Source of the DNA: Candidatus Enterousia sp. | Lineage (GTDB): Bacteria > Pseudomonadota > Alphaproteobacteria > Rs-D84 | Length of the DNA stretch: 64,000 nucleotides | NCBI GenBank assembly: GCA_045648925.1 | Contig: JAZROY010000003.1 | Location: forward strand, 57,082-121,081 | Direction of reading: 5' to 3' | Shown: piece by piece, positions 49,776-50,385 of the stretch | Layout of the letters: every line of letters starts with the position of its first letter | Position numbering within the stretch: the stretch's first letter is position 1 | Position numbers and translations under genes: made by a program | The notes under the pieces: model-generated | What the model saw: only the letters and a program-made list of their open reading frames with translations | Told to the model about the DNA's origin: nothing | Databases searched by the model: none

Positions 49776-49852
49776 CGCGGGATAGAGCAGTCCGGTAGCT
49801 CGTCAGGCTCATAACCTGAAGGTCGGTGGTTCAAATCCATCTCCCGCAACCA
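49776..49852 (+). tRNA. Initiator tRNA-fMet (anticodon CAU)
   Basis: cgcgggatagagcagtccggtagctcgtcaggctcataacctgaaggtcggtggttcaaatccatctcccgcaacca is near-identical in architecture to E. coli tRNA-fMet (CGCGGGG...GCAACCA); C1-A72 mismatch; CCA encoded. Confidence 0.9.
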
Positions 49853-50385
49853 GTTAAATGAAAAATACACCCCTGTGGTGTATTTTTTATTTAATGTGTG
49901 TTGTGTTGGGTTTGAACCACCGGGGCAAGGTGGTTCAGTGCAAGGATTAGGCAGACGGCAGTATGCCGGTTTGCGACAGCAAAAATCCGCAGCCAATGAA
50001 GCGAAGCGAAATAAATCCATCTCCCGCAACCAGTTTAAATAAAAAACGTGTCCAAAGCGGCACGTTTTTTATTTAATTTGTTGTGGATTGTTGGTTTGAT
50101 ATCATACAACGCAGTTGTTTGGTTCAAAATTTGTATATAAGAACGAGTTTTTACCCATATTTGGTAAAAACGAAGTTCGAATAACTACAAATTTGCGCGC
50201 AGACACAAAGTGTCGAGCGAATTCCATCTCCCGCAACCAAGATTTAATAAAAAGCACCCCTTGTGGGTGTTTTTTTGTTAAATATGTGTGTTGTGTTGGG
50301 TTTGAACCACCGGGGCAAAGTGGTGCAAAACAAGGATTAGGCAGACGGCAGTATGCCGGTTTGCGACAGCAAAAATCCGCAACTA
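49853..50385 (+). repeat. Array of three tRNA-fMet 3'-end-associated units: A 49853-50042 and B 50043-50239 each end in a copy of the last ~20 nt of tRNA-fMet; C 50240-50385 repeats the body of A (49895-49990 vs 50285-50380, ~93% id) and is cut off at the galE stop
   Basis: Units A and B end ...aaatccatctcccgcaacca and ...aattccatctcccgcaacca; each unit begins with a terminator-like hairpin + T-run. Body hairpin gaaccacc-ggggcaa-ggtggttc. The 3' part (gccggtttgc...tgaagcgNagcgaaaNaaatcc) is shared with the tRNA-Met locus units at 34429-34759. Confidence 0.85.
49860..49888 (+). terminator. Intrinsic terminator after tRNA-fMet
   Basis: tacacc-cctgt-ggtgta + T6. Confidence 0.65.

What the first reader, a model, noticed from the sequence alone, without database searches (positions are those of the whole stretch)
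49776..50385. Initiator tRNA-fMet followed by three more 3'-end-regenerating units: a family of miniature tRNA-CAU-associated elements
After tRNA-fMet (C1-A72, E. coli-like) the pattern seen at tRNA-Met repeats with two body types. Unit A (49853-50042) and unit B (50043-50239) each start with a terminator-like hairpin and end in the tRNA-fMet 3' 20 nt (aaatccatctcccgcaacca / aattccatctcccgcaacca). Unit C repeats the body of A at ~93% identity and runs into the galE stop codon. The 3' portion of these bodies (gccggtttgc...tgaagcgNagcgaaaNaaatcc) is recognisably related to the units at the tRNA-Met locus. That makes a related element family at two different CAU-anticodon tRNA genes 15 kb apart, each copy ending in the 3' end of its own host tRNA. 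Copies adapted to their target or co-evolving with it, and chimeric A-B-A' arrays, argue for repeated site-specific insertion rather than a single duplication.
Basis: seen in the sequence. Interest (0 to 1): 0.7.

Follow-up and report, generated by a model that had tools for sequence, protein, structure and literature searches.

The report
tRNA-linked repeats after initiator tRNA
The three units after the initiator tRNA gene belong to the "tRNA-linked repeats" (RtT-type) first described in E. coli in 1978, here in an uncultured rumen alphaproteobacterium, so the class is known, although the units have a conserved fold and vary between strains.

Summary
tRNA-fMet (49776-49852) is followed by unit A (49853-50032), unit B (50033-50239) and a truncated A-like unit C (50240-50385). 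A and B end in the last 20 nt of the tRNA. A and C are homologous to the two units after tRNA-Met at 34430-34759.

It is not a new, CAU-specific element. It fits the tRNA-linked repeat (TLR) / RtT RNA class by position, orientation, tRNA 3'-end copy and tandem arrays.
- A covariance model built from 31 alphaproteobacterial units finds all four E. coli tyrT repeats and the lysV TLR.
- Rfam RtT gives a full-length hit on unit A, but below its threshold.
- The same module follows Arg, Ser, His, Pro, Gly, Lys, Glu and Tyr tRNAs in related genomes, and also occurs in Verrucomicrobia and Bacteroidota.

Each type-A unit is a copy of the host T-arm split in the T-loop by a structured core. Compensatory changes support a three-way junction plus an R-U-GAA-GC-GNA-GC-GAA-A-Y hairpin.

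Arrays differ sharply between conspecific strains, and cores are swapped between tRNA frames. No recombinase, phage or plasmid copy was found, and unit A is ancestral at this locus.

Best reading: a resident trailer-RNA module reshuffled by recombination. Its function is unknown, as for all TLRs.

The parts
49736..49763 (+). Perfect sigma-70-type promoter (TTGACA, 16-nt spacer, TATAAT) 12 nt upstream of tRNA-fMet
   Evidence: 12 of 12 consensus positions.
49776..49852 (+). Initiator tRNA-fMet (CAU) with encoded CCA and a C1/A72 mismatch
49853..50032 (+). Unit A, a complete type-A tRNA-linked repeat. Sub-parts: terminator hairpin 49853-49895; inner hairpin TGAACCACC (49913-49921, inverted T-arm copy) / GGTGGTTCA (49929-49937, direct copy of T-stem 5' strand plus start of T-loop); core closing stem GGATT 49944-49948 / AATCC 49984-49988; hairpin 1 49950-49967; hairpin 2 49970-49983.
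   Evidence: inverted repeats I2, I3; 117 bits.
49996..50012 (+). Conserved motif hairpin A-U-GAA-GC-GAA-GC-GAA-A-U. It lies immediately 5' of the regenerated tRNA end.
   Evidence: The closing R:Y pair covaries (19 G-C, 12 A-U), GC/GC is invariant and the loop N is free.
50013..50032 (+). Copy of the last 20 nt of tRNA-fMet (T-loop A57/58 to CCA), 20/20 identical
   Evidence: repeat family D2.
50033..50239 (+). Unit B, a type-B tRNA-linked repeat (variant form). Sub-parts: terminator 50035-50076; terminal hairpin ACAC-AAA-GTGT 50203-50213 followed by CGAGCGAA; tRNA end copy 50220-50239 (19/20).
   Evidence: Type B recurs at tRNA-Met, Arg and fMet loci with compensatory stems.
50240..50385 (+). 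Unit C, a 3'-truncated type-A unit (92% to A). It has its own terminator-like hairpin at about 50243-50280. It loses the motif hairpin and the tRNA end at the galE stop codon. It is present in all conspecific contigs examined.
   Evidence: 64 bits.
50386..51387 (-). galE (UDP-glucose 4-epimerase family), convergent with the array. Its stop codon abuts unit C.
   Evidence: Pfam Epimerase.
34355..34429 (+). tRNA-Met(CAU), host of the second array
34430..34594 (+). tRNA-Met type-A unit 1. It ends in aatcccttcgccgctacca (19 nt of the host tRNA).
   Evidence: 144 bits.
34595..34759 (+). tRNA-Met type-A unit 2, a near-identical tandem copy of unit 1
   Evidence: 142 bits.

Best explanation
The units are tRNA-linked repeats (TLRs) of the RtT type. 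They are resident, structured modules in the 3' trailer of tRNA transcription units, not CAU-specific mobile elements.

Anatomy of a type-A unit, shown directly:
- An intrinsic-terminator-like hairpin.
- An inverted copy of the host tRNA's T-arm, paired to a direct copy of the T-stem 5' strand plus TTCGA.
- A 70-85-nt core that folds as a three-way junction (closing stem and two hairpins).
- A small hairpin R-U-GAA-GC-GNA-GC-GAA-A-Y.
- The host tRNA from T-loop nt 58 to CCA.
In effect the unit is the 3' third of the host tRNA, split in the T-loop by a structured insert.

Mechanism, inferred:
- The units are transcribed from the strong tRNA promoter by read-through of leaky terminators.
- The tRNA-like 3' end lets the tRNA-maturation nucleases trim and stabilise the RNA, as documented for E. 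coli RtT and the rrA/B/F TLRs.
- The released RNA has an unknown partner. The invariant GA-flanked hairpin is the most likely protein- or RNA-binding site.
- Arrays grow, shrink and become chimeric by homologous or unequal recombination and gene conversion. The substrates are the short repeated tRNA-derived segments (3' end plus terminator, T-arm halves) and the conserved core ends, within a genome and between strains.
For: Membership of the TLR/RtT class:
- The definition is met: same strand, immediately 3' of a tRNA gene, last 18-20 nt identical to the tRNA 3' end, 1-5 tandem units (definition from PMC8144298).
- Rfam RtT gives a full-length alignment on unit A with the same architecture.
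- Model R1, built only from alphaproteobacterial units, finds all four E. coli tyrT-locus repeats (E 5e-7 to 3e-5).
- R1 also finds the lysV TLR, which itself passes the Rfam RtT gathering score (47.3 against 45).

Structure:
- On an unbiased MAFFT alignment of 31 units, 85.6% of cells are paired against 32-44% for slid controls.
- There are 115 double-change cells against 19-38 in the controls.
- The covariation score is 0.321 against at most 0.093.

Strand:
- Units always share the tRNA's orientation, and terminators point the same way.
- G-U pairs outnumber A-C pairs 36 to 22.
- In the E. coli arg operon, TLRs lie between co-transcribed tRNA genes and so must be transcribed.

Residency:
- tRNA-fMet plus one type-A unit, with compensatory changes, occurs in several related species.
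- Cores cluster mainly by host tRNA, as expected for orthologous loci.

Recombination:
- Conspecific strains differ by whole-unit indels or swaps bounded by the repeats. fMet arrays are A-B-C', B-island-C', B'-C' and island-B'-C'. Met arrays are A-A, A-B-A'' and A-C.
- L073 carries a tRNA 3' half fused to a type-B core exactly at the shared T-arm segment.

No mobility machinery:
- There were no hits in IMG/VR, phage or plasmid collections.
- The one integrase island at tRNA-fMet (L044) has its own ~40-nt repeat and leaves the TLR outside it.
Against: - Each unit here begins with a strong terminator-like hairpin, so transcription of the cores may be low. No expression data could be consulted.
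- Formal Rfam membership fails: 20.9 bits on unit A against a gathering score of 45.
- The acceptor-strand copy is often decayed in terminal units (L002, L013, L018, L032). This argues against strong selection on a tRNA-like terminus.
- Base-pair conservation fits single-stranded DNA as well as RNA, and the G-U excess is modest.
- Near-identical cores sit in different tRNA frames: L036 Arg against L013 Met at 91%, and a Pro/Arg-type core in a Met frame within one species.
- The T-loop junction is invariant across unrelated core types and across phyla.
- A dedicated insertion mechanism would predict both of the last two observations. Gene conversion is an adequate explanation for them but an untested one.
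Confidence: 0.6

Rival explanations
1. The units, or their cores, are miniature non-autonomous mobile elements. They insert site-specifically at the tRNA 3' end or T-loop, regenerate the tRNA end each time, and are mobilised in trans.
For: - A unit is a precise insertion bounded by a 19-20-nt duplication of the tRNA end.
- The same junction (TTCGA|core|AATCC, T-loop nt 57/58) is used by three unrelated core types and in several phyla.
- Almost identical cores occur in frames of different tRNAs.
- Array content turns over within a species at 98-99% identity.
- The TGAAGCGNAGCGAAA motif is shared by Alphaproteobacteria, Opitutae and Bacteroidota.
Against: - No recombinase, transposase or reverse transcriptase is linked to any unit.
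- No copy was found in the virus, phage or plasmid collections.
- Every true copy found lies at a tRNA end, and never at an unrelated site or as a free element.
- Three separate segments of each unit match the host tRNA. A pre-formed element could not carry these to a new tRNA.
- Unit A is orthologous across species at this locus.
- All polymorphisms are bounded by repeats long enough for recombination.
Confidence: 0.2
2. The units are scars of integrase-mediated events. They would be collapsed attL/attR (attP-like) remnants of phages or integrative islands that targeted the tRNA 3' end, accreted in tandem like CIME elements.
For: - tRNA-fMet, Met and Arg in these genomes are real integration hot spots. 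Examples are a P4-type integrase island in L044, a serine-recombinase island in L026, and gene-bearing islands in L001, L008, L030 and L077 that begin exactly after a ...GCAACCA end.
- A unit (160-200 bp) is about the size of an attP.
- GAAGCGAAGCG resembles a pair of arm-type direct repeats.
Against: - The integrase island in L044 makes a different, ~40-nt repeat starting in the anticodon stem, and the TLR lies outside it.
- E. coli TLRs sit between tRNA genes inside operons.
- The core is conserved as a base-paired structure with compensatory changes, which protein-binding arm sites would not require.
- There are no matches in phage or viral collections.
- The T-loop overlap region is not duplicated at the two junctions, as a tyrosine recombinase would leave.
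Confidence: 0.07
3. The units are functionless by-products of tandem duplication and decay of tRNA genes and their terminators.
For: - Tandem near-identical copies occur (Met units 1 and 2).
- Truncated and decayed copies occur (unit C; B' in L002).
- Presence or absence varies between strains without obvious consequence.
Against: - Helices are maintained by compensatory substitutions across 31 units, and the 15-nt motif is invariant across classes and phyla. Its invariance is partly built in, because the units were collected by searching for exactly that motif.
- Unit A is retained next to tRNA-fMet in several species.
- Architecture is shared with E. coli across a very large evolutionary distance.
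Confidence: 0.1

Closest known systems
tRNA-linked repeats (TLRs) of E. coli, including the tyrT 178-bp repeats / RtT RNA (Rfam RF00391; Egan & Landy 1978 and Rudd 1999, as summarised in PMC8144298)
   Same: - Location immediately 3' of a tRNA gene on the same strand.
- The last 18-20 nt are identical to the tRNA 3' end.
- One to five tandem units per locus.
- Shared architecture: inverted T-arm copy, direct T-arm 5' half, hairpin-rich insert, a GCGAAGC-containing hairpin just before AATCC.
- Mutual detection by covariance models.
- Function unknown.
   Different: - Host tRNAs are fMet and Met, and Arg, Ser, His, Pro, Gly, Lys and Glu in relatives. In the E. coli loci examined here the hosts are Tyr, Arg and Lys.
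- Sequence is too diverged for the Rfam gathering score (20.9 against 45).
- Every unit here starts with its own strong terminator-like hairpin.
- At least three interchangeable core types (A, B, C) share one frame.
- Found in an uncultured rumen alphaproteobacterium rather than Enterobacteria.
rrA/rrB/rrF small RNAs, the TLRs downstream of 5S rRNA in E. coli rrnA/B/D (PMC8144298)
   Same: - Lie between two terminators.
- Made by terminator read-through.
- End in an 18-nt copy of the upstream stable RNA's 3' end, proposed to direct RNase E processing.
   Different: - The host is 5S rRNA, not a tRNA.
- They bind Hfq and CsrA through GGA motifs, which the units here lack.
- The paper reports that the tRNA-linked members score below 0.01 as CsrA binders.
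Direct repeats (attL/attR) left by tRNA-targeting integrative elements, and tandem accretion of defective elements (CIMEs)
   Same: - Duplication of a tRNA 3' segment so that the tRNA gene stays intact.
- Tandem arrays.
- The same loci do host real islands.
   Different: - No integrase is present.
- The repeat always starts at T-loop nt 58, whereas the one real integrase island seen (L044) repeats ~40 nt from the anticodon stem.
- There is a conserved base-paired core.
- Copies lie inside tRNA operons in E. coli.
3' external transcribed spacer RNAs of tRNA operons, such as 3'ETS-leuZ (as cited in PMC8144298)
   Same: A functional RNA can be carved out of tRNA-operon trailers by the tRNA-processing nucleases.
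   Different: - 3'ETS-leuZ is a short sponge for small RNAs, with no tRNA-end copy and no tandem structure.
- No target complementarity was examined here.

Membership tests
tRNA-linked repeats (TLR), as defined in E. coli | Lies in a tRNA (or rRNA) transcription unit, immediately downstream of the gene and on the same strand | tested here: met
   Units A-C follow tRNA-fMet, and two units follow tRNA-Met, all on the + strand.
tRNA-linked repeats (TLR), as defined in E. coli | The 3' end of the repeat (18-19 bp) is identical to the 3' end of the upstream tRNA | tested here: met
   A 20/20, B 19/20, Met units 19/19. Unit C is truncated and lacks the end.
tRNA-linked repeats (TLR), as defined in E. 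coli | One to five units per locus, at several tRNA loci in one genome | tested here: met
   Three and two units at two loci in this window. Related genomes carry them at two to three different tRNA loci each, for example JAZROV at Arg, fMet and Met.
RtT RNA (Rfam RF00391) | Score at or above the curated gathering threshold (45 bits) | tested here: not met
   Unit A scores 20.9 bits (E 0.05) as a full-length alignment, and the Met units give no hit. Controls: E. coli tyrT units 133-138 bits, lysV TLR 47.3 bits, Opitutae unit 36.2 bits.
RtT RNA (Rfam RF00391) | Shared architecture, shown by reciprocal detection with an independent model | tested here: met
   Model R1, built from alphaproteobacterial units only, finds the four tyrT-locus repeats (E 5e-7 to 3e-5) and the lysV TLR (E 1e-4). 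It does not find the arg-operon TLRs, which resemble the family only by eye.
RtT RNA / TLR small RNAs | Transcribed with the tRNA and processed to a discrete RNA | not testable with these tools
   No expression data were available. Promoter and terminator consensus matches only.
Integrase att-site remnant / integrative element | A tyrosine or serine recombinase gene inside or next to the repeat-bounded segment | tested here: not met
   The units are 145-207 bp and non-coding. No recombinase lies between the tRNA and galE. Recombinases seen in L044 and L026 belong to separate islands with their own boundaries.
Integrase att-site remnant / integrative element | The same sequence present as attP in a phage, plasmid or island | tested here: not met
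   There were 0 hits in IMG/VR for the motif pattern, and no BLAST match in the phage or plasmid collections.
MITE-type transposon derivative | Element-specific terminal inverted repeats and dispersed copies at unrelated sites | tested here: not met
   The inverted segments are copies of the host tRNA's own T-arm and change with the host. About 40 of 52 genome matches lie at a tRNA 3'-end sequence, and I judged the remaining dozen to be chance matches, mostly inside genes.

The most novel reading that the evidence does not exclude
TLR cores could be a self-propagating, cross-phylum element that enters the T-loop (nt 57/58) of a copy of the tRNA's 3' third. One possible route is an RNA or cDNA intermediate that copies the host tRNA from its CCA end up to the T-loop and then snaps back. 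That would explain four things together: the 19-20-nt end duplication, the inverted T-arm copy, the host-specific frames, and the interchangeable cores. It would make TLRs a new class of tRNA-templated mobile element rather than passive trailer RNAs.
Probability: 0.12. Interest if true: 0.8.

Novelty: new member of a known kind. Interest (0 to 1): 0.35.

Why it matters
According to the one paper found that discusses TLRs, they have been known since 1978 and have no assigned function apart from the three rRNA-linked members (PMC8144298). I found no description of them outside Enterobacteria, though the literature search was limited.

This locus adds several points:
- The class reaches far beyond Enterobacteria, to rumen and gut Alphaproteobacteria, Verrucomicrobia and, in a short form, Bacteroidota.
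- It has a fold supported by covariation, with a motif hairpin that was identical in every unit collected. The units were collected by searching for that motif.
- The tRNA-derived frame and the inserted core are separable modules.
- Arrays turn over within a single species.

These points give concrete handles for a long-open question: a consensus structure, a candidate binding hairpin, and natural presence/absence variants. They do not change the classification. This is an ordinary member of a known, poorly understood class, not a new tRNA-CAU-specific mobile element.

Tried and rejected
- Rfam at gathering thresholds finds only the tRNAs. At relaxed thresholds only RtT is sensible, and the other hits are noise.
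- CAU specificity is rejected, because the genome scan found the module after at least 10 other tRNA types.
- Phage or plasmid origin found no support: 0 hits in IMG/VR, in INPHARED phages and in PLSDB plasmids.
- An integrase link is rejected. The integrase and serine-recombinase islands at L044 and L026 have their own boundaries.
- I tested whether the unit mimics a full acceptor/T minihelix.
  - A first test for a host-specific complement of the acceptor strand was negative (self 4.3 against non-self 3.8).
  - An anchored test gave only weak support (2.6 against 1.5; 73 of 10000 permutations; some pseudo-replication).
  - Only the GGAT/ATCC and T-arm pairings are solid.
- Coding potential of the small ORFs over the units (49875-50042 on +, 49772-50029 on -) was dismissed without a formal test. 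Stems vary by compensatory changes, and by eye the loop indels in the alignment do not look restricted to multiples of three.
- The other tRNAs in the window (Gly, Tyr, Thr) have no repeat of their 3' ends.
- The literature search found a single open-access paper on TLRs. Rudd 1999 and Egan & Landy 1978 were not readable here and are cited second-hand.

Full report
**1. The observation**

The window encodes tRNA-Met(CAU) at 49776-49852 (ARAGORN; Rfam tRNA 64.3 bits). Its C1/A72 mismatch marks it as an initiator (sequence). A perfect TTGACA-16-TATAAT promoter lies at 49736-49763.

Three units follow the tRNA.
- Unit A is 49853-50032. It opens with a terminator-like hairpin (49853-49895) and ends in aaatccatctcccgcaacca (50013-50032), 20/20 identical to the end of the tRNA.
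- Unit B is 50033-50239. It has a terminator at 50035-50076 and ends in aattccatctcccgcaacca (19/20).
- Unit C is 50240-~50385. It repeats the body of A at 92% over 107 nt and is cut off at the stop codon of the convergent galE gene (50386-51387).

Everything else is as described.

At 34355-34759, tRNA-Met is followed by two near-identical units that end in 19 nt of that tRNA. The similarity between the loci is not limited to the tRNA-derived tail.
- TGAAGCGNAGCGAAA occurs three times in 64 kb, only in these units, against 0.48 expected.
- One covariance model scores the Met units at 144 and 142 bits, A at 117 bits and C at 64 bits.

**2. Anatomy**

I aligned 31 non-identical type-A units from this window and from related genomes (MAFFT). 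Each unit consists of five parts:
- a terminator-like hairpin;
- an inverted copy of the host tRNA's T-arm, paired to a direct copy of the T-stem 5' strand plus TTCGA (in A: TGAACCACC-GGGGCAA-GGTGGTTCA);
- a 70-85-nt core with a closing stem and two hairpins;
- a small hairpin R-U-GAA-GC-GNA-GC-GAA-A-Y;
- the host tRNA from T-loop nt 58 to CCA.

The unit therefore reads as the 3' third of the host tRNA, split in its T-loop by a structured insert.

The structure is supported on the unbiased alignment.

| Measure | Structure | Slid controls |
|---|---|---|
| Cells paired | 85.6% | 32-44% |
| Cells changed on both sides | 115 | 19-38 |
| Covariation score | 0.321 | at most 0.093 |

The pair closing the motif hairpin switches cleanly between G-C (19 units) and A-U (12 units).

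G-U pairs outnumber A-C pairs 36 to 22. Together with the orientation of the terminators, this favours the tRNA strand as the structured strand, but only modestly.

A complement of the acceptor strand 5' of the T-arm copy is at best a decayed remnant.

**3. What it is**

Rfam's RtT model (RF00391) aligns end to end with unit A, with the same order of features. This model represents the repeats of the E. coli tyrT locus. The score, 20.9 bits, is below the 45-bit gathering score.

The literature defines the class (PMC8144298). "tRNA-linked repeats" were first seen by Egan & Landy in 1978. There are 22 copies at 10 loci in E. coli K-12 (Rudd 1999), with one to five per locus. Each ends in 18-19 bp identical to the 3' end of the upstream tRNA or rRNA gene. 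[quoted passage not shown]"

All of these defining features are met here.

The reciprocal test also works.
- Model R1, built only from alphaproteobacterial units, finds all four tyrT-locus repeats (E 5e-7 to 3e-5).
- It finds the TLR after lysV, which itself passes the RtT gathering score (47.3 bits).
- The E. coli arg-operon TLRs are not detected by R1. By eye they share the hairpins and a GA-flanked hairpin just before AATCC.

**4. Distribution**

I scanned one genome per GTDB species for TGAAGCGNAGCGAAA(N1-2)AATCC. This gave 52 loci, of which about 40 are true units followed by a tRNA 3' end.
- Where a host tRNA could be assigned, it is Met, fMet, Arg(ACG), Arg(CCG), Ser(UGA), Ser(GGA), His, Gly, Lys, Glu, Pro or Tyr. 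The family is therefore not linked to the CAU anticodon.
- Most loci come from uncultured gut and rumen Alphaproteobacteria (Candidatus Enterousia, RUG and UBA bins).
- An Opitutae genome has the full architecture (L024, 36 bits on Rfam RtT).
- Bacteroidota and Flavobacteriales genomes carry a short form in which the motif hairpin alone caps a stem made with the tRNA end (L015, L027, L061).

The window organism is an uncultured rumen alphaproteobacterium. Its closest species representative is RUG11635 (L014, 89-94% identity).

Unit B belongs to a second conserved core type. It occurs at Met, Arg and fMet loci and has its own compensatory stems. A third type (C) appears in conspecific strains. 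All three types, and the E. coli units, join the tRNA-derived frame at the same place...TTCGA|core|AATCC...

**5. Variation**

Contigs from other rumen metagenomes are about 98% identical to the window and encode identical GalE or PagL proteins. They show different arrays.

| Locus | Source | Array |
|---|---|---|
| tRNA-fMet | window | A-B-C' |
| tRNA-fMet | L001, L003, L007, L010 | B - 1.5-kb two-gene island - C' |
| tRNA-fMet | L002, L004-L006 | B'-C' |
| tRNA-fMet | L008 | large island - B'-C' |
| tRNA-Met | window | A-A |
| tRNA-Met | L068, L069 | A-B-A'', where A'' has a Pro/Arg-type core in a Met frame |
| tRNA-Met | L070, L071 | A-C |
| tRNA-Met | L073, L074 | an island plus a tRNA 3' half fused at the T-loop to a B core |
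| tRNA-Met | sister species L014 | B-A |

The fMet arrays come, and the Met arrays.

- Cores cluster mainly by host tRNA. There are cross-type near-identities: L036 Arg against L013 Met at 91%, Arg against Pro at 85-90%, and Met against Ser at 88%.
- Related species carry tRNA-fMet followed by a single type-A unit with compensatory substitutions (L075, L076/L078, L044). A is therefore the old resident at this locus, and its absence in some conspecific strains is most simply a loss.

**6. Mechanism**

Shown:
- membership of the TLR class by position, 3'-end copy, tandem arrays and architecture, though not by the Rfam gathering score;
- a conserved fold;
- modular frames and cores;
- rapid array turnover;
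- no linked recombinase;
- no copy in the IMG/VR, phage or plasmid collections.

Inferred (confidence 0.6):
- The units are trailer modules transcribed by read-through from the strong tRNA promoter.
- They are trimmed by the tRNA-processing nucleases thanks to their tRNA-like end, as reported for RtT and rrA/B/F.
- Arrays are remodelled by homologous or unequal recombination and gene conversion at the short repeated segments.

The function of the RNA is unknown. The invariant GA-flanked hairpin is the best candidate for a binding site.

Rival explanations:
- A real insertion mechanism (0.2). The invariant T-loop junction, the swapped cores and the cross-phylum motif favour it. The lack of any machinery and the host-specific frames argue against it.
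- Integrase scars (0.07). The L044 island argues against it, because its ~40-nt repeat starts in the anticodon stem and leaves the TLR outside.
- Functionless duplication debris (0.1). The covariation argues against it.

**7. Verdict**

The finding is real and well observed. It is a new member of a known class, not a novel CAU-tRNA-specific mobile element family. Moderate interest remains because the class is still unexplained. This lineage offers a consensus structure and natural variants with which to study it.

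Noticed in passing
L001 minus strand ~7150-7185 and ~8660; L030 minus strand ~5954-5984 and ~3956-3986; L077 minus strand ~905-938; L008: Gene-bearing islands at the tRNA-fMet locus start exactly after a ...CCCGCAACCA end of a repeat unit. 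They end in a conserved ~35-nt block TTCAGCTCG(R)GAACTGCACAC...GCACAACCA (a hairpin plus the last 6-7 nt of the tRNA), followed by a terminator and the next unit. This looks like a cassette array. Cargo includes a PF11307 (Rv0495c-like) protein, a DNA methylase and small secreted proteins. No recombinase lies within the DNA held.
   Followed up: partly
L044 + strand 349-389, with ORFs 5161-6339 and 6329-7366 in reverse-complement coordinates: A ~7.4-kb island at tRNA-fMet encodes a P4-type integrase-like protein (by N-terminal sequence only, no Pfam run). It is bounded by a ~40-nt direct repeat of the tRNA that starts in the anticodon stem. The type-A repeat unit lies just outside the distal repeat.
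   Followed up: partly
L026 + strand ~4387-5958: A 523-aa ORF with a serine-recombinase-like N terminus (IYCRVSSKKQ) abuts and overlaps the 3' end of tRNA-Arg(ACG). The matching type-A repeat unit lies 5.9 kb away, at the far side of the island.
   Followed up: no
L073 389-560 (also L074): A tRNA-Met 3' half, starting in the anticodon loop next to foreign DNA, runs directly at its T-loop into a type-B core and then into a partial type-A unit. This is a natural recombinant joined at the shared T-arm segment.
   Followed up: partly
L015 minus strand 818-975; L027; L061: Bacteroidota and Flavobacteriales carry ~107-nt or shorter units in which TGAAGCGAAGCGAAA forms the loop of a stem made by the tRNA 3' end and its complement. 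In these records the repeated tRNA end stops without a CCA.
   Followed up: partly
window 51946-55845 (minus strand) and the matching genes in L001-L010: The large glycosyltransferase-type gene beyond galE differs between conspecific strains: 1299 aa here, 1211 aa with GT2 domains in L001, and 1303 aa without Pfam hits in L002. Identity drops to 92% in part of it, suggesting a strain-variable surface-polysaccharide region.
   Followed up: no
window 49736-49763: A 12/12 match to the sigma-70 consensus (TTGACA, 16-nt spacer, TATAAT) lies directly upstream of tRNA-fMet.
   Followed up: no
L064 (E. coli K-12 serV-argVYZQ operon, minus strand): The three arg-operon TLRs are not detected by model R1. 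By eye they share GGCGG-TAATAA-CCGC and GTTGC-TTTA-GCAAC hairpins and a GCC-GCAA-GGC hairpin flanked by GA, just before AATCC. Spacers with and without a TLR differ by a clean insertion bounded by the 19-nt tRNA end.
   Followed up: partly
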